Shown here piece by piece: positions 3,553 through 55,419 of a stretch of 64,000 nt of DNA (its first letter is position 1; every line of letters begins with the position of its first letter). A program made the position numbers and the translations under genes. The DNA is from Candidatus Kapaibacterium sp. (lineage in GTDB: Bacteria; Bacteroidota; Ignavibacteria; Kapaibacteriales; UBA2268): positions 4,448,001 to 4,512,000 of the forward strand of contig OY762428.1 in the NCBI GenBank assembly GCA_963665665.1. The letters are read 5' to 3'. The notes below the pieces were generated by a model. That model made no database searches. It saw nothing but the letters and a program-made list of their open reading frames with translations, and was not told the DNA's origin.

Positions 3553-3815
3553 TGCTTTCCGAGCGTTCCCCCGTGCTTTCCGAGCGTTCCCCCGTGCTTT
3601 CCGAGCGTTCCCCCGAGCTTCCCGAGCGTTCCCCCAAGCTTCCTGAGTGTTCCCCCGTGCTTCCCGAGCGTTCCCTCGTGCTTTCCGAGCGTTCCCCCGA
3701 GCTTTCCGAGCGTTCCCCCGAGCTTCCCGAGCGTTCCCCCAAGCTTCCCGAGCGTTCCCCCGTGCTTTCGTAGCGTTTCCTAGTGCCTTCCGAGCGTTCC
3801 CTCGTGCTTTCCGAG
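3553..3815. repeat. 21-bp tandem array, ~12.5 units, consensus TGCTTTCCGAGCGTTCCCCCG
   Basis: Units counted directly; low-complexity heptad ORFs appear in all frames. Confidence 0.95.
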
Positions 3816-21841: not shown

Positions 21842-22642
21842 TCACATCATAATCAATATAGAGAAGGCCATAACCGCCATTCCGGCTATCATGCCGTAAA
21901 TTGCTTTATGGCCGTGGTCATATTCCCTGGCAGTAGGCAATAATTCATCCACGGAAATAAATACCATTATACCCCCGACAGCAGCAAATAAAAATCCGAA
22001 AGTTGCCGGAGTAAGTATAGTATGCAATATCATATAACCTATTATTGCGCCTACAGGTTCGGACAGGCCGGAAGAAAATGATAGCCAAAATGCTTTTTTT
22101 CTGCTACCTGTTGAGTAATATACAGGTATTGAAACTGCAATTCCTTCAGGAATATTGTGAATGGCGATTGCAATTGCAATAGGAATACCTATCGAAGGAT
22201 CAACGAGATAAGCCGAGAATGTTGCTATTCCTTCCGGAAAGTTATGTATACCAATAGCCAGTGCTGTGAATAAACCCATCCTGTAAAGTTTTTTATCGTC
22301 TTTAGGAGCATTCATATCCTCTATTTGCTTAGGCTCGTGAGGATTTTCAAAAGATGGAATAAACCTGTCAATTATCATTATTATTATTATTCCAAGAAAA
22401 AATGCACCTACACCGTACCAGGCGGCAGTGCTTTCAGAATATACCTGCTCAAGGGATTCAATCGCTTTTACAAGTATGTCAACAAAAGAAACATATATCA
22501 TTACACCGCCGGAAAACCCCAGGGATATGGCCAGGAAAGCTTTGTTTGTCTTTTTTGTAAAAAATGCAAGTGCACTTCCAATACCTGTGGAAAGTCCTGC
22601 GAAAGTTGTTAACAGCAATGCATAAATAATTGTTTCATTCAT
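21842..22642 (-). CDS. zupT: ZIP-family zinc transporter ZupT
   Basis: [38 protein letters not shown] and DELLPTA. Confidence 0.93.
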
Positions 22643-22647
22643 CTGAT

Positions 22648-23223
22648 TTACTTTTTAATTGTAGAATATGCTGAAATTAGTTCTCGGCCTATGCCGTAAT
22701 AGCTACGTCCCGACGAATCAAATATGAAAGGATCAATTTTTGCAATATCAGGCATACCTTTCTTGTTCAGATAAGATTCTTCGCATGATACATCCAATAT
22801 TTCTCCGATAAACTGGGTATGGATACCAATTTCATAAGTATGAATTACCTTGCAGCTCAGGTGCATTGGAAATTCTTTTATGTAGGGAGCATGAACATAA
22901 GAACTTTCCAACGCTGTCAGGTTGAGTTTCTCGAATTTATTCATATCCCTGCCGCTGTAAATACCTGTGAAATCAGCTTCACTAACCTGACTGCCAGAAG
23001 GGATATTAAGAGTAAAAGCCTGGTGTTTCATAATACTGCTGAAGGAATACCTTGATTTTCTCAGAGAAATTGTAACACATGGCGGTTCGCTGCAGCAAAT
23101 ACCTCCCCAGGAAACTGCCATTATATTGGGATTATCATTATCATCGTAAGAACCAATAATAAAAACGGGATGCGTGAAAAGTAAAGTTTTTTTATTTATG
23201 GATTTCCGCATTATATCTTTCAA
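22648..23223 (-). CDS. Flavin reductase family protein (flavoredoxin-like)
   Basis: [34 protein letters not shown] and [10 protein letters not shown]. Confidence 0.88.
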
Positions 23224-23577
23224 AATATTGTTATTTAATAAACATATAATATTAAGGTTTTCCTAACAATTCAGCAAATATTTTTTTCAAATATTCCTGA
23301 TTTTATAAAATATTGAGATATTCAATAATTTATCAATGCACCGATGTTTGATGATATTGCTGCCTTGTTCGTAAGCAAAGAAAGAAAACCTCCCCTATAA
23401 TCCCCTCCTCCCTGAGGAGGGGATAAGAAATTAAATATCATAGAATTAACTCCCCCTCCTTCGGAAGGAGGGGGCCGGGGGGAGGTAGGAAGGGTCTATG
23501 GTAATGTACCAATGTTCAAATCCATTGCCGCCTTATTCTTCTTCAAAGCCCTCTCCTTCGGGGAGGGTTTGGGAGGG

Positions 23578-23804
23578 GTCGGAGTCATTGATGCCTTGGT
23601 CGGAGTTATTGACGCCTTGGTCGGAGTCATTGATGCCTTGGTCGGAGTCATTGATGCCTTGGTCGGAGTTATTGATGCCTTGGTCGAAGTCATTGATGCC
23701 TTGGTCGAAGTCATTGATGCCTTGGTCGAAGTTATTGATGCCTTGGTCGAAGTCATTGATGCCTTGGTCGAAGTTATTGATGCCTTGGTTGAAGGCATTG
23801 ATTA
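23578..23804. repeat. 21-bp array A (GTCG[G/A]AGT[C/T]ATTGATGCCTTG), 10 full units plus a partial unit
   Basis: Units counted directly. Confidence 0.95.
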
Positions 23805-23812
23805 TAATCAAT

Positions 23813-24169
23813 AAGGTCAACCAAGCTGTCAGTAAGGTCAACCAAGCTGTCAGTAAGGTCAACCAAGCTGTCAGTAAGGTCAACCAAGCTGTCAATAAGG
23901 TCAACCAAGCTGTCAGTAAGGTCAACCAAGCTGTCAATAAGGTCAACCAAGCTGTCAGTAAAGCCAACCAAATGTTCAGTAAGGTCAACCAAGTGTTCAG
24001 TAAGATCAACCAAGTGTTCAGTAAGATCAACCAAGTGTTCAGTAAGATCAACCAAGTGTTCAGTAAGGTCAACCAAGTGTTCAGTAAGGTCAACCAAGTG
24101 TTCAGTAAGATCAACCAAGTGTTCAGTAAGGTCAACCAAGTGTTCAGTAAGATCAACCAAGTGTTCAAT
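23813..24169. repeat. 21-bp array B (AAGGTCAACCAAG[CTG/TGT]TCAGT), 17 units
   Basis: Units counted directly; first 7 units carry CTG and the next 10 carry TGT. Confidence 0.95.
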
Positions 24170-24903
24170 GAGGCCAAATTTTACTACAATAAGGCCAAAC
24201 AGTAGTTCAATACCACCGGCCAGGGCAGTTTAAAGCCCTGCAATCCAAGCAATTAGCCCAAACATCAGGATTCTGGTTCAAAACAGTATTGAAATAAGGA
24301 AATTATCCGGTTCATTGAAACCACAGGATGAGGAATTAAGGCCGACGGCCTGTTCATTGGGGTGGAAGAACTGGGGGATAGGGCCGGAGAAGGAGGTATT
24401 ATGTTGTCATTCCCCGACCTGTCGGGGCCAGCGGTGGACAGGTGATTTTCCCTCCTTCCCAAGTTGTACTTGGGAATGAATTTTTCCTGCAAAGTTCTAC
24501 TTTGGAATTATGAAGCTCAGCTTCAAAAGAAAACTGCATTACGAAGTACAACTTCGTAATGAGGGGGAATGTATTAAGAATGGATCCTTCGCTTCGCTCA
24601 GGATGACATGCAGTTTTACCATCGTCAAGTTCAATAGCCACGTGCTTTAGCTCGTGGATAAAGACGCAACGTCCCGAAGACTAAGAAAAAGAATCCACCC
24701 CAGCCTGTCCCGACGTGTCGGGAACTCGCTGCGCTCGCCACCCCTCAACGAGGGGAATTTTCCGGAAATCCACCCCCGCCCTTCGGGCATCCGTCAACTG
24801 GAGCGAAATGAATACATCAACTGTCACCATCTGATGAGGGACAGGGGCTTCGACTCTTTACAGGCATATTTATTATCTTAAAGAAGCGGGTTTAAATCAC
24901 TTT

Positions 24904-25812
24904 TTACCAATCATCAGATGAATAAAATTCCCTGCTATATATGTTTGTTGATTCTTTTATTCTGGAAATTTCTAATGAACTTAGATTGTTTTTCCATTTA
25001 CTAATATTTTGCTTTGAGTCTCGATGCAGATTGTCATTTATTTTTGCACGGCTTGTTTCATCAATATATCTGCGTGCTTTTTCATTGAAATCCAGATTCA
25101 GCTTTTTATATAATTTGGCGAATTCCCCAACCGGATTTGTTGAGAGGTCCTCGTGCCGTACAAAAATCCAATTGTTATAATTCTCCTTATATTTAATGAT
25201 CTTATAATGAATGATATTCCAAAGAAGGATTGCATGTTCGATAATATCATTTCGGTTTTCTTTGCAAATATCAAGGATTTCTTTTTGCAGCTTATCAGGA
25301 AGTTCTTTCATCAATTCTTCCTGGTTCGAAAAATGGTTAAAATTATGAAGCCAGTTTTTATTTTTCAATGATTCAGCAAAAGCTGCAGGATGCCTGATTA
25401 AAACAACAACCTGAAAGTCGAAATTCCTGTAAATCCAATCAGCAGAAAACAAAGCTATAGGATCTTTTACAAGTTTTCTTTTGTAATATAATTTCTTTAA
25501 TTCATGTAGTGTCGAATTTGCCAGGGATTTTAATCCGGGTTTGTAATATACTTTGTTTATCAAATTGCTCATGCTGAAATTTAGTTGCGCCTGAAAATAT
25601 TTATATGTGGCTTTATTATTATCCTCTGTTTTTTCAAACCAGAATTTCAACGGGAATTTTATCCTGGGTTTGTGATTAAGATTGAAAGGTTCATAGATAT
25701 ATTGCGTGTCTCCGCCTGCTGACAAGACCCGGCCGGTCCATGTAGATCCTGATCTGTGCGATCCTGTTACTAAGATGTTCTGCATACTTTCCGTTAATAA
25801 ATTCAATAACAA
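24904..25812 (-). CDS. Sulfotransferase family protein
   Basis: ILVTGSHRSGSTW PAPS-binding loop, YEPFN, VKDP, LIRHPAAF and VRHEDL; start may be at 25785. Confidence 0.88.
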   Translation of the reverse strand: MLLNLLTESMQNILVTGSHRSGSTWTGRVLSAGGDTQYIYEPFNLNHKPRIKFPLKFWFEKTEDNNKATYKYFQAQLNFSMSNLINKVYYKPGLKSLANSTLHELKKLYYKRKLVKDPIALFSADWIYRNFDFQVVVLIRHPAAFAESLKNKNWLHNFNHFSNQEELMKELPDKLQKEILDICKENRNDIIEHAILLWNIIHYKIIKYKENYNNWIFVRHEDLSTNPVGEFAKLYKKLNLDFNEKARRYIDETSRAKINDNLHRDSKQNISKWKNNLSSLEISRIKESTNIYSREFYSSDDW

Positions 25813-53604: not shown

Positions 53605-53946
53605 ATTTCACCAATGTTCGAATCTATTGACGCCTTGGTCGAATCTATTGATGCCTTGTTCGGAGTCATTGCCGCCTTGGTCGAAGTTAATGCTGCCTTG
53701 TTCGACGCTATTGCACCGATGTTTGATGATATTGCTGCCTTGTTCGAAGTCATTGATGCCTTGGTCGGAGTCATTGATACCTTGGTCGAAGTCATTGATA
53801 CCTTGGTCGAAGTTATTGATGCCTTGGTTGAAGATAATGATGCCTTGGTTGAAGTCATTGACGCCTTGGTCGGAGTCATTGATACCTTGGTCGAAGTTAT
53901 TGATGCCTTGGTTGAAGATAATGATGCCTTGGTTGAAGATAATGAG
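53605..53946. repeat. 21-bp array A, copy 2 (16 units, more diverged on the left)
   Basis: ATTGAT[G/A]CCTTGGT[C/T]GAAGT[C/T]-type units counted directly. Confidence 0.93.
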
Positions 53947-53956
53947 CAACCTCAGT

Positions 53957-54208
53957 AAAGTCAACCAAGACCTCAGTAAAGTCAACCAAGACCTCAGTAA
54001 AGTCAACCAAGACCTCAGTAAGGTCAACCAAGACCTCAGTAAGGTCAACCAAGACCTCAGTAAGGTCAACCAAGTCCTCAGTAAAGTCAACCAAGACCTC
54101 AGTAAGGTCAACCAAGTCCTCAGTAAGGTCAACCAAGACCTCAGTAAGGTCAACCAAGACCTCAGTAAAGTCAACCAAGACCTCAGAAAGGTCAACCAAG
54201 TCCTCAAT
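53957..54208. repeat. 21-bp array B, copy 2 (AA[A/G]GTCAACCAAG[A/T]CCTCAGT, 12 units)
   Basis: Units counted directly. Confidence 0.95.
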
Positions 54209-55419
54209 GAGGCCGAATTTTAATACAATAAGGCCAAACAGTAGTTCAATACCTCGGGCCAAGGCAGTTTAAAGCCCTGCAATCCAAGCAATTAGCCCAA
54301 ACATCAGGATTCTGGTTCAAAACAGCGTTGAATTAAGGAAATTATCCGGTTCATTGAAACCACAGGATAGGGAATTAAGGCAAAATGATGAGATATTGAA
54401 GTGGAAGAATGAGTAAACAGAGCAAAAGAATGAGGTGTTATGTTGTCATTCCCCGACACGTCGGGGCAGGCTTCCGGAGCTTGCGACCGAAGAATCCATC
54501 TTTGTTTGCAGATAATGTATGAAGAATGGATTCTTCGCTTCGCTCAGGATGACATGCAGTTTTACCATCGTCAAGTTCAATAGCCACGTGCTTTAGCTCG
54601 TGGATAAAGATGCAAGGTGCGGAGGCAAAGAAAAAGAATCCACCCCGACTCGCTGCGCTCGCCACCCCTCAACGAGGGGAATGTTTATAAAACCAGCCAT
54701 CCCGAAAGCGGCGTAGCCGCGACATTTTTGTAGAAAGGCGAATCCGGAAAGGACAACAGCCCCGTAGGGGCGACATTGGCAAAAGATTGTGTCGCTCCTA
54801 CGGAGCTTTTAATAATCGCAATGTAAACATTATCTACAAAAATTCCGCTCCTACGGAGCTTTTTATATAATTCCGATGCTCTTGCGACTGAAGAATCCAT
54901 CTTCGTTTGCAGATAGTGTGTGAAGAATCCACCCCGACTCGCTGCACTCGCCACCCCTCAACGAGGGGAATTTTAAGAATCCACCCCCGCCCTTCGGGCA
55001 CTCGTCCTAAATTAGGAGGGGATAAGAAATTAAATATCATAGGATTAATTCCCCATCCTTCAGAAGGAGAAGGCCGGGGGAGTTAGGAAGAGGCAGAAGC
55101 AATGCACTGATGTTTTAAGCCATTGCCGTCTTATTCTTCTTCAAAGCCCTAACTTTTTGGGAGGAGCGGCCCCTTAGGAGGATACCTGAGCGTGTTTGGG
55201 AAGGGGGGCGTAAACTGTATTGGAAAAATTAAAAAACCGCGACTTTAATTATTACGTGGATTCCGGATGTTTAATATTTGAACCTTGGAATTATATTATG
55301 GTCATCACAATAAACTCAAATTAAACATACTGAAAAGAATAATTATTTTATCTGTTCCTGTAATTCAATTTTGAAGTATATTATTATTCGGTTTATGTAT
55401 TTAATTATTAAGAATTTTT

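What the first reader, a model, noticed from the sequence alone, without database searches (positions are those of the whole stretch)
23578..24169. Two head-to-head 21-bp arrays that are reverse complements: a long periodic rod-like hairpin
Seen: array A parses as CTTGGT[C/T]GA-AGTC-ATTGA-TGC and array B as TCA[G/A]T-AAGG-TCAACCAAG-NNN. The 9-mer and 5-mer blocks of A pair with those of B (13/21 identity between A and the reverse complement of B), and the arrays meet at a perfect 16-bp palindrome ATTGATTATAATCAAT (23797-23812). Inference: a single strand would fold into an arm of more than 200 bp with repeating 9-bp stem / 4x4 loop / 5-bp stem / 3x3 loop units, one per ~2 helical turns. This is not a CRISPR, simple VNTR or classical REP/BIME, and could be an undescribed structured RNA/ssDNA scaffold or a symmetric protein-binding array. 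I know of no named family, but cannot search.
Basis: partly seen in the sequence, partly recalled or inferred. Interest (0 to 1): 0.9.

Follow-up and report, generated by a model that had tools for sequence, protein, structure and literature searches.

The report
Dispersed 21-bp inverted-array repeat element
The two mirror-image 21-base arrays are real, but they are one of about fifty copies of a repeat element that fills gaps between genes in this one bacterial lineage, and the long hairpin they could form looks like a by-product rather than their purpose.

Summary
Array A (23577-23802, 10.8 x 21 bp) and array B (23808-24167, 17.1 x 21 bp) meet at a 16-bp palindrome, and both strands fold far better than shuffles.

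The locus is not unique:
- The genome has 113 loci of 21-bp-periodic arrays (68.8 kb, 1.3%).
- It has 53 copies of a composite element: degenerate A-like units, centre unit, B-like array, 243-bp tail.
- A second copy lies in this window (53618-54451).
- All 53 are intergenic, and 25 lie between convergent genes (baseline 18%).

Evidence against a selected rod hairpin:
- Arm lengths are uncorrelated, and equal in only 4 of 30.
- Arm complementarity stays near 13-14 of 21.
- Eleven copies carry a spacer of about 550 bp (14.7% GC) between the arms.
- A second family has its arrays in direct orientation.

No frame shows a coding signature, and no protein or Rfam match was found. The family was not found in 653 other genomes of the phylum, apart from small arrays in two.

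Best reading: a lineage-specific composite interspersed repeat, BOX/BIME-like, built from a 21-bp minisatellite. A phased protein-binding role remains open.

The parts
23325..23576 (.). Distal, degenerate A-like 21-bp units interrupted by three G+C-rich REP-like hairpins (about 23400-23424, 23450-23474, 23549-23567). This is the left part of the multi-copy region.
   Evidence: Self-BLAST coverage rises from 0 to 19-116 copies from 23325 onward. The sequence was read. The third hairpin lies in phase with the 21-bp register (last units listed). The same hairpin is the only part of the query that matched 6 other genomes of the order.
23577..23802 (+). Array A: 10.8 copies of GGTCGAAGTCATTGATGCCTT.
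   Evidence: TRF. 537 A-like units (5 or fewer mismatches) occur genome-wide.
23797..23812 (.). Centre: perfect 16-bp palindrome within the centre unit AAGGCATTGATTATAATCAAT.
   Evidence: This is centre class iii (4 of 30 copies). Only this copy has 16 bp; the other three have 12 bp.
23808..24167 (+). Array B: 17.1 copies of TCAGTAAGGTCAACCAAGTGT. The inner 7 units have the CAAGCTGTCAGT form and the outer ones the CAAGTGTTCAGT form.
   Evidence: TRF and sequence. 392 B-like units occur genome-wide. A and B are in the same 21-bp phase in 24 of 24 loci tested.
24170..24412 (+). 243-bp tail module that always abuts the outer end of the B-like array. It is itself about 11 decayed 21-bp units in phase.
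   Evidence: 53 copies at 82-94% identity. Autocorrelation peaks at lags 21, 63 and 42 (0.40/0.38/0.38 against a mean of 0.26, sd 0.044). No conserved RNA structure.
24413..24800 (.). Other multi-copy modules (hairpin and MITE-like pieces) that also occur elsewhere without arrays. This is the end of the repeated region.
   Evidence: Contigs of short-read runs break at about 23365 and about 24760.
53618..54451 (+). Second copy of the same element in this window: A array 53618-53945, B array 53949-54206, tail from about 54209.
   Evidence: TRF on the whole window. Tail hit at genome 4502209-4502467.

Best explanation
The finding is one copy of a lineage-specific, non-coding, composite interspersed repeat.

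Structure. The whole element, about 1.1 kb or more, is a 21-bp-periodic tract. It consists of an old, heterogeneous A arm, one conserved centre unit, a homogeneous B-like arm and a decayed tail. The two arms are a diverged inverted duplication of one ancestral 21-bp unit.

Shown:
- The element exists in about 53 copies.
- It sits only between genes, preferentially between gene 3' ends.
- It travels as a unit: centre and tail are conserved within subfamilies.
- The number of units per arm differs freely from copy to copy.

Inferred:
- Copies spread by an unknown transposition-like or recombinational route, and partly by segmental duplication.
- The arms grow and shrink by replication slippage or unequal recombination, like a minisatellite.
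- The hairpin potential follows from the inverted ancestry. At most it has the incidental effects known for REP/BIME and BOX repeats when read through, such as a transcriptional roadblock or RNA 3'-end protection.
For: Abundance:
- 288 of 861 TRF rows in the genome have period 21.
- 113 merged loci cover 68,836 bp.
- 14-mers present 6 or more times cover 8.2% of the genome.

Composite architecture:
- 53 tails always adjoin a B-like array.
- There are three conserved centre-unit classes.
- Phase is identical in 24 of 24 loci.
- The tail and the AT-rich spacer are themselves 21-bp periodic.

Location:
- 0 of 53 copies lie inside an ORF.
- 25 are convergent, 24 tandem and 4 divergent. The genome baseline is 17.8/60.4/21.8% (chi-square p 7.6e-8).
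- The same bias is reported for BOX, RUP, SPRITE and IS elements, where it is read as tolerance of parasitic DNA (PMC3049150, passages read).
- Positions along the chromosome are not distinguishable from random (CV 0.90 against 0.97).

Lineage restriction:
- The three-core pattern gives 575 matches in this genome.
- It matched 2 other genomes of 253 in the order (2 and 1 matches) and none of 400 others in the phylum sample.
- Two metagenome scans gave 0 hits.

No coding signature:
- There is no conserved start codon.
- Four of six frames are open by construction.
- Variable positions are not third-codon positions. In the A arm the outward heptad frame has its least variation at third positions, 56 of 274 (position counts).
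- The coiled-coil-like frame uses disfavoured codons.
- No protein database hit.

The tail is followed in most copies by another MITE-like module, i.e. nested repeats as in BOX/RUP clusters.
Against: - No transposase, terminal inverted repeats or target-site duplication were identified, so mobility is inferred only from dispersal.
- The strict 21-bp period (two helical turns, or seven codons) recurs in at least two families with no evident sequence similarity by eye (no statistical test). It survives in decayed parts without indels. Pure neutrality does not predict that.
- The same-locus arms are slightly more complementary than arms from different loci (13.63 against 13.00, permutation p 0.0008).
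- Stop-creating variants are weakly under-represented in the open frames (Mann-Whitney p 0.046 and 0.057).
- The B arm read outward looks like a coiled coil to Pfam (Alanine_zipper 32.9 bits, cut-off 23.1).
- The commonest centre unit offers ATG codons on both strands in the outward frames.
- No expression data exist to show that it is silent or merely read through.
Confidence: 0.55

Rival explanations
1. Phased protein-binding arrays. Each 21-bp unit (two helical turns) carries a conserved core, RAMCAAG....CA in outward orientation. The units line up on one face of the helix, in two divergent blocks, as iterons or centromere-like repeats do. A lineage-specific DNA-binding protein coats them, acting in nucleoid organisation, insulation or termination between genes.
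For: - The period is exactly 21 bp in several families, with phase kept across the centre unit, across in-phase hairpin insertions and across a 27-unit gap.
- Decayed parts are still periodic.
- The same positions are invariant in both arms: T3, G4, T6, T16, G17 of the CTTG register.
- Some copies show the arrangement 'AT-rich centre flanked by divergent arrays'.
Against: - No candidate binding protein or adjacent conserved gene was found; flanking genes differ from copy to copy.
- Invariant positions can equally reflect descent from a few founder unit types.
- Positions on the chromosome are random, and orientation relative to replication is weak (33 of 53 by my hand count).
- Array length is very variable.
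- The D subtype lacks part of the core.
Confidence: 0.2
2. Heptad mini-genes. The arms encode short coiled-coil peptides read outward from the centre: B as (K-V-N-Q-V-F-S)n ending ...NEAKFHYxKAKQ-stop in the tail, and A on the other strand as (D-F-D-Q-G-I-N)n. The commonest centre palindrome, GAACATGTTC, supplies both ATG codons.
For: - The outward frames are open in nearly all copies; the median longest open stretch is 216 and 215 codons in 53 copies.
- The stop in the tail is TAG in 34 and TGA in 4 at the same codon (38 of 53). 11 read on 17 codons further, and 4 end elsewhere.
- All B subtypes keep a hydrophobic / V-A-I / Q pattern.
- There are weak Pfam coiled-coil hits.
- ATG is present on both strands in centre class i, 18 of 30.
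Against: - The start codon is not conserved. Class iii (this copy) and the spacer-bearing copies have no in-frame ATG at the array start.
- Divergent ORFs with overlapping start codons leave no promoter space.
- Codon-position pattern is wrong. In the A arm the third positions are the least variable (56 of 274 variants). In the B arm second positions vary as much as third (68 and 67 of 165).
- The frame uses disfavoured codons (mean log2 RSCU about -0.8).
- Tail diversity shows no codon periodicity, and the best-conserved stretch lies beyond the stop.
- No predicted protein in 5.8 billion clusters scored.
- No ORF extends into a non-repeat domain. In other genomes, by contrast, 21-bp arrays with this core mostly lie inside longer ORFs.
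Confidence: 0.12
3. Functional long hairpin. A transcript or a single DNA strand spanning both arms folds into a periodic rod that acts as a scaffold, an RNase III substrate or a bidirectional terminator between convergent genes.
For: - Both strands fold far better than shuffles (z -8.4 and -13.5).
- The arms are always inverted and in phase within this family.
- There is a small but significant same-locus excess of complementarity.
- The elements are enriched between convergent genes, where read-through from either side would contain both arms.
Against: - Arm lengths are unmatched.
- Complementarity is about 62-65%, with two loops per unit that never close in any subtype.
- A spacer of about 550 bp separates the arms in 11 copies.
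- The central palindrome is not conserved.
- Direct-orientation arrays in the second family and in the related genus have similar genomic behaviour.
- Arm-to-arm gene conversion or shared ancestry explains the small covariation equally well.
Confidence: 0.1

Closest known systems
BOX elements of Streptococcus pneumoniae (boxA - boxB(n) - boxC)
   Same: Both are composite interspersed repeats with a variable tandem array inside conserved end modules. Both run to dozens or hundreds of copies and are intergenic. Both are over-represented between convergent genes, clustered or nested with other small repeats, restricted to a narrow lineage and predicted to fold (PMC3049150, passages read; compare).
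   Different: Here the array unit is 21 bp rather than the roughly 45 bp I recall for boxB. Arrays reach 10-30 units, and there are two arrays in inverted orientation. The element is 1 kb or more rather than under 200-300 bp. No sequence relationship was sought or expected, and no terminal inverted repeats were found.
REP / BIME clusters and RAYT-associated REPINs
   Same: Both are intergenic, high-copy mosaics of several modules in alternating orientation and lie at 3' ends of genes. The genome does hold G+C-rich REP-like hairpins inside the element. It also holds a Y1-transposase gene flanked by multi-copy palindromes.
   Different: The 21-bp units are not palindromes. The repeats flanking the Y1 gene are a different sequence family from the arrays. 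BIME periodicity and size (recalled) differ.
Plasmid/phage iterons and centromere-like repeat arrays
   Same: Both have units of about 21-22 bp in tandem, all on one helical face, sometimes in two blocks around an AT-rich region (properties of iterons recalled, not from a call).
   Different: This element has 53 chromosomal copies and no adjacent rep or par gene. It has up to 30 units per arm, and its arms are heterogeneous.
Foldback (FB) transposons of Drosophila
   Same: Both have long inverted arms that are themselves made of short tandem repeats, most regular toward one end (recalled, not from a call).
   Different: FB elements are eukaryotic and their arms are true inverted repeats. Here the arms are only about 62% alike, and no transposase is associated.
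TAACTGA heptamer direct-repeat arrays in Beggiatoaceae, Cyanobacteria and a few Bacteroidetes
   Same: Both are abundant intergenic short tandem arrays with a sporadic, lineage-limited distribution and unknown function (PMC4679880, abstract and passages read).
   Different: That unit is 7 nt, not 21, and the arrays mostly have 2-6 copies just upstream of start codons. There are no inverted partner arrays.
CRISPR arrays
   Same: Both are regular short repeats. Some copies here have an AT-rich region next to the array.
   Different: There are no spacers, since the units abut, and no cas genes adjacent. There are many loci.

Membership tests
CRISPR | Repeats separated by unique spacers of similar length | tested here: not met
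   Units are contiguous with period 21 and 0% indels (sequence).
CRISPR | Adjacent cas genes | tested here: not met
   Neighbours are a flavin reductase, a ZIP transporter, a response regulator, a sulfotransferase and an SDR.
Any Rfam RNA family | Covariance-model score at or above the gathering threshold | tested here: not met
   There were 4 matches at E<=1, all far below gathering. The best was 39.3 bits against 139, outside the arrays. Over the centre the score was 21.5 against 93.
Structured RNA / selected hairpin | Pairing maintained by compensatory change across copies, with arms of matched length | tested here: not met
   Same-locus against different-locus identity is 13.63 against 13.00 of 21. 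Arm lengths are uncorrelated and equal in 4 of 30. A spacer of about 550 bp is present in 11 of 43.
REP / REPIN | Unit is a short imperfect palindrome (20-40 bp) | tested here: not met
   The 21-bp A and B units are not self-complementary. Only the inserted G+C-rich hairpins are.
REP / REPIN | Cognate RAYT (Y1 transposase) flanked by the same repeats | tested here: not met
   A Y1_Tnp gene is present (75.7 bits), but its flanking multi-copy palindromes are a different sequence from the arrays.
MITE | Terminal inverted repeats and target-site duplication | tested here: inconclusive
   The left ends of the repeated region differ between copies, and no common terminus or duplication was seen. The right end abuts another MITE-like module. 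No empty site was available.
BOX-like composite interspersed repeat (kind, not sequence family) | Conserved end modules around a variable tandem array; many intergenic copies | tested here: met
   There are 53 copies with a conserved tail and centre and 5-27 B-like units. 0 of 53 lie in ORFs.
Iteron / centromere-like binding array | Adjacent gene for the cognate binding protein (Rep/ParB/ParR-type) | tested here: not met
   No conserved neighbouring gene; flanks differ between copies.
Iteron / centromere-like binding array | Specific protein binding to the unit | not testable with these tools
   This needs pull-down, DAP-seq or ChIP.
Coiled-coil protein gene | Conserved start, third-position-biased variation, homologues | tested here: not met
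   No conserved start. The position pattern is wrong. There is no codon periodicity in the tail, codons are disfavoured and there are no database hits.

The most novel reading that the evidence does not exclude
The 100 or more arrays form a chromosome-wide system of phased landing pads. Each 21-bp unit (two helical turns) presents the same core on one face of the DNA, in two divergent blocks around a centre that is very AT-rich in some copies. A dedicated lineage-specific protein polymerises on them. They would then act as boundary or insulator elements between convergent transcription units, a bacterial counterpart of satellite or centromere-like repeat arrays. A variant of equal novelty is that the same arms are read outward from a palindromic double ATG into two families of heptad peptides.
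Probability: 0.15. Interest if true: 0.85.

Novelty: new variant of a known kind. Interest (0 to 1): 0.48.

Why it matters
Bacterial genomes rarely tolerate more than 1% of their DNA as long minisatellite arrays. Even more rarely do they hold them as a single modular element present about fifty times in one lineage and almost absent from more than 650 relatives. If the element is merely selfish, it is a clean new example of how composite repeats such as BOX and BIME arise, nest and expand. It is also a practical warning, because these loci break short-read assemblies and create long spurious ORFs in four frames. If the strict two-helical-turn periodicity is functional, it points to an undescribed DNA-binding or chromosome-structuring system. 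Such a system could be tested directly with a short synthetic array as bait.

Tried and rejected
Unique structured RNA locus
- Rejected, because 53 copies exist.
- Rfam gave only sub-threshold microRNA noise.
- RNAalifold on 53 tails gave -9.4 and -2.1 kcal/mol, with 2 compensatory pairs of 22 and of 15.

Promoters and terminators
- A scan for the Bacteroidetes-type -7 box TAnnTTTG (motif recalled) found no position shared by 5 or more of the 53 copies.
- Single instances seen by eye lie just before the C-type arrays and the family-2 arrays. They were not tested.
- The sigma-70 and terminator scan of 23150-24950 gave 7 against 3.2 expected promoter-like sites and 4 against 2.0 expected terminator-like sites. 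None was informative.

Replication-related orientation
- The GC-skew minimum is near 1.74 Mb and the maximum near 5.12 Mb.
- By my hand count 33 of 53 elements are co-oriented, which is weak.

Regular spacing on the chromosome
- Not seen.

Expression
- No RNA holder was listed.
- Contigs of 4 DNA runs (2 samples, 2 studies) only show that assemblies break at the element's edges. They also show that a strain about 99.5% identical (5 differences in 1070 bases) has a repeat at the same left edge.

Orthologous locus in the related genus
- The A-like array of G160 lies between murI and a secretion-signal protein.
- The murI of this genome (2.25 Mb) has no array next to it.

Stop-codon avoidance test
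- The per-array count looked strong.
- It is confounded by a few ancestral variant types. Counted per variant type it is marginal.

Protein searches
- Searches with near and shorter lengths gave no hit.
- The exact look-up of 5 ORFs found none in the collection.
The blank is therefore weak evidence.

Genome-collection scan
- The organism therefore remains unnamed, and counts from that scan are lower bounds.

Rows dropped and limits
- In one search, 10 of 53 elements had fewer than 5 recognisable units in an arm and were dropped.
- In one search only the 30 spacer-less elements of those 43 were used.
- In one search, 2 of 53 tails were dropped.
- The ORF map is crude: ATG-started ORFs of 120 aa or more, under 30% repeat-masked, greedy overlap removal.
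- Most relatives are fragmented assemblies in which long arrays may be missing, so 'not found' is not 'absent'.
- I did not open supplementary files of the two papers. The species tables of PMC4679880 might name Bacteroidetes with long heptamer arrays.
Full report
**What is there**

Tandem Repeats Finder reports two abutting arrays. Array A is at 23577-23802: period 21, 10.8 copies, 93% matches. Array B is at 23808-24167: period 21, 17.1 copies, 94% matches. The A consensus read as reverse complement agrees with the B consensus at 13 of 21 positions.

Both strands fold much better than shuffles. The + strand gives -236.5 kcal/mol (z -8.4) and the - strand -236.9 kcal/mol (z -13.5), in a periodic stem/loop pattern. 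The register is not unique, however. In the minimum-energy structure A pairs with distal B units, and the six or so surplus B units pair with each other.

**It is not a single locus**

The whole genome is one contig of 5,458,198 bp with 38.6% G+C. TRF on it gives 861 rows. Of these, 288 have period 21 and 488 have a period of 21 to 126 in multiples of 21. Merged, they make 113 loci covering 68,836 bp, or 1.3% of the genome. At 5 or fewer mismatches there are 537 A-like and 392 B-like units.

Self-BLAST of 22600-25200 shows that everything from about 23325 to about 24800 is multi-copy. Contigs of short-read runs end at about 23365 and about 24760. A 243-bp segment just outside array B (24170-24412) occurs 53 times at 82-94% identity. 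It always abuts the outer end of a B-like array. A second complete copy lies in this same window, at 53618-54451.

**Anatomy of the element**

Oriented as in the window, every copy reads as follows:
- heterogeneous A-like units, often interrupted by small G+C-rich hairpins;
- one conserved centre unit;
- a homogeneous B-like array;
- the tail;
- and in most copies another MITE-like module after the tail.

By the variable five bases of the unit, the B-like arm comes in at least nine subtypes: TGTTC 18, TCCTC 8, CAAGC 6, CGTGG 5, ACATC 4, ACCTC 3, TGAGC 3, CTGTC 2 and CATGC 1. This census covers the 50 of 53 copies that have recognisable units. All subtypes share ...RAMCAAG....CART.

A and B are in the same 21-bp phase in 24 of 24 loci where both were found independently of register. 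In 43 elements with 5 or more units in both arms:
- 30 have exactly one centre unit between the arms;
- 11 have a gap of 27 units;
- one has a gap of 20 and one a gap of 5.

The 27-unit gap is a conserved spacer. Its AT-rich part is 14.7% G+C. Both this spacer and the tail are themselves 21-bp periodic. Autocorrelation maxima fall at lags 21, 63 and 42, about three standard deviations above the mean. The entire element is therefore a partly decayed 21-bp-periodic tract.

The centre unit falls into three classes:
- GAGGCAAAGAACATGTTCAGT (18 of 30), with a 10-bp palindrome;
- AAGATAATGAGTAACCTCAAT (8 of 30), with none;
- AAGGCATTGATTATAATCA[A/G]T (4 of 30).

Only the window's copy has a perfect 16-bp palindrome. 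Its three sister copies have 12 bp. Conservation of centre and tail within classes shows that the element is copied as a whole.

**Where the copies lie**

I used a crude ORF map of 3,529 ATG-started ORFs of 120 aa or more. With it, 0 of 53 elements lie inside an ORF. Relative to the element, the flanking genes are convergent in 25, tandem in 24 and divergent in 4. Gaps in the genome at large are 17.8% convergent, 60.4% tandem and 21.8% divergent. The difference is significant (chi-square p 7.6e-8; binomial p 8e-7 for the convergent excess).

In the window the element lies between a flavin reductase gene and a sulfotransferase gene, both on the - strand. The copies are scattered along the chromosome as expected by chance. 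Orientation relative to the replication direction is weak (33 of 53 by my hand count).

The same bias toward convergent gene pairs, narrow lineage distribution and nesting with other small repeats are reported for pneumococcal BOX, RUP and SPRITE elements. There they are read as the signature of tolerated parasitic DNA (PMC3049150, passages read).

**Distribution**

I searched with a pattern of three conserved cores spaced 21 bp apart.
- This genome has 575 matches.
- Among the other 253 genomes of the order, only G160 (2 overlapping matches) and G221 (1 match) have any.
- A sample of 400 other genomes of the phylum, all 90% or more complete, has none.
- A DNA search with the locus found only the G+C-rich hairpin (query positions 55-105) in 6 of 40 relatives.
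- Two scans of metagenome contigs found nothing.
- The scan of 185,579 species' genomes stopped at 109 stretches, each with 1-5 matches. In the 80 I examined, the arrays were short and mostly inside longer ORFs, that is, ordinary coding heptad repeats.

G160 is a complete genome of another genus. It carries 8.8 A-like units next to a second 21-bp array in direct orientation, in an intergenic gap and with no inverted partner. This genome's murI has no array next to it, so that locus is not orthologous to any copy here.

Many relatives are fragmented assemblies. 'Not found' is therefore the correct wording.

**Is the hairpin selected?**

Several results argue against it.
- Arm lengths are uncorrelated (Spearman -0.10, p 0.62) and equal in only 4 of 30.
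- Complementarity of the arm consensuses is 11-18 of 21, with a mean of 13.63. Arms from different loci give 13.00. The excess is significant (permutation p 0.0008) but small. Arm-to-arm gene conversion or shared subfamily ancestry would produce it too.
- The variable five bases of the B-like arm have changed repeatedly without a matching change in A. The '4x4 loop' therefore never closes in any subtype.
- Eleven copies have a spacer of about 550 bp between the arms.
- The central palindrome is not conserved.
- A second array family of about 26-30 loci has its own conserved flanks, units such as CACGAACCAACGCTAAGACGG followed by GAACGCTCGGAAAGCACGGGG, and one array in this window at 3553-3815. 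Its two arrays are in direct orientation, and it is likewise strictly intergenic: 0 of 26 in ORFs, 10 convergent.

That result is met in part, by G160 and by the second family.

**Is it coding?**

The unit is open in four of six frames. Two frames run through both arms, with median longest open stretches of 216 and 215 codons over 53 copies.

Read outward from the centre, the B-like arm gives heptads such as KVNQVFS, KVKQVLN, KVKQAWD and EAEQASN. The A arm on the other strand gives DFDQGIN. The B reading ends at one codon in the tail in 38 of 53 copies (TAG in 34, TGA in 4). Pfam scores the B reading weakly against about 98 coiled-coil families. Alanine_zipper scores 32.9 bits, above its cut-off of 23.1. 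The commonest centre unit offers an ATG on both strands in these frames.

Against coding:
- The window's own centre class and the spacer-bearing copies have no in-frame ATG at the array start.
- Among distinct within-array variants, the A arm has its fewest changes at the third positions of the outward frame (56 of 274). In the B arm, second positions vary as much as third (68 and 67 of 165) (position counts).
- Stop-creating variants are only marginally rare (p 0.046 and 0.057).
- The coiled-coil-like frame uses the least favoured synonymous codons (mean log2 RSCU about -0.8).
- Nucleotide diversity in the tail has no codon periodicity, and the best-conserved stretch lies beyond the stop.
- No protein of 30-412 residues in the 5.8-billion-cluster collection scored, and the five longest ORFs are not in it.
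- No ORF reaches a non-repeat domain.

The database blank therefore carries little weight.

**What remains unexplained**

The exact 21-bp period is seen in at least two families with no evident sequence similarity by eye. It persists without indels in decayed parts, and phase is kept across in-phase hairpin insertions. Simple neutrality does not predict any of this.

Twenty-one base pairs is two helical turns. The same positions are invariant in both arms. An iteron-like, phased protein-binding role is therefore a live alternative, although no cognate gene is apparent. A Y1-transposase (RAYT-like) gene exists, but it is flanked by a different palindromic repeat. Other multi-copy genes look like IS3, IS4 and Rpn-type transposases. 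Those names are from my reading of the sequences and were not tested.

**Verdict**

But it is one member of a lineage-specific composite interspersed repeat, BOX/BIME-like in behaviour, built from a 21-bp minisatellite whose two arms are an old inverted duplication.

My probabilities:
- about 0.55 for the passive or selfish reading, with at most incidental hairpin effects;
- about 0.2 for phased protein binding;
- about 0.12 for heptad mini-genes;
- about 0.1 for a selected hairpin.

Noticed in passing
window 53618-54451: This is a second complete copy of the same element: A array 15.6 units, B array 12.3 units, then the tail. It lies 30 kb from the finding.
   Followed up: yes
window 3553-3815: This is an array of 12.5 x 21 bp (TGCTTTCCGAGCGTTCCCCCG) from a second family with no evident sequence similarity by eye. 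About 26-30 loci of it occur genome-wide. It often follows a CACGAACCAACGCTAAGACGG array in direct orientation, with its own conserved flanks and a TATTTTTG box just before the first unit.
   Followed up: partly
window 23400-23424, 23450-23474, 23549-23567: Three G+C-rich REP-like hairpins are embedded in the distal A units, the third in phase with the 21-bp register. The third hairpin (CCCTCTCCTTCGGGGAGGG plus TTTGGGAGGGG) also occurs, often as inverted pairs, in 6 other genomes of the order.
   Followed up: partly
genome G000:C1, e.g. 1025572-1027260 and 10 other loci: In one subfamily the arms are separated by a conserved spacer of about 550 bp. It has only 14.7% G+C, is itself 21-bp periodic and keeps the two arms in phase (gap of exactly 27 units).
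   Followed up: partly
window 24413-24800 and most other copies, just after the tail: This is a MITE-like module with terminal inverted repeats GTCATTCTGA...TCAGAATGAC, sometimes with a further small hairpin inserted. It also occurs elsewhere without arrays.
   Followed up: no
whole genome G000: 14-mers present six or more times cover 448 kb (8.2%) of the genome, so it is unusually rich in small interspersed repeats.
   Followed up: no
G000:C1:1821817-1822161 (L132): A Y1-transposase (PF01797, 75.7 bits) gene is flanked on both sides by the same multi-copy palindromic repeats (GCCCCTACGGGGC and ACTACAAAAATGCCGCAGCTACGCTGC). It looks like a RAYT with its REPs. The same repeat type sits at the left edge of several array elements.
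   Followed up: partly
L012 (G160:C1:1662271-1665321) 1492-1805: A related genus has a single intergenic pair of 21-bp arrays in direct orientation: 8.8 A-like units plus 6.1 units of AGACTTAAAAACGAAGACGGA. They end in ATTGATTTTCATCAAT, which resembles the window's central palindrome.
   Followed up: partly
G000:C1 5035941 and 5307440; 97416 and 625283; 2157994 and 2213281: These pairs of elements share unique-looking left flanks. Some copies therefore spread as part of larger segmental duplications.
   Followed up: no
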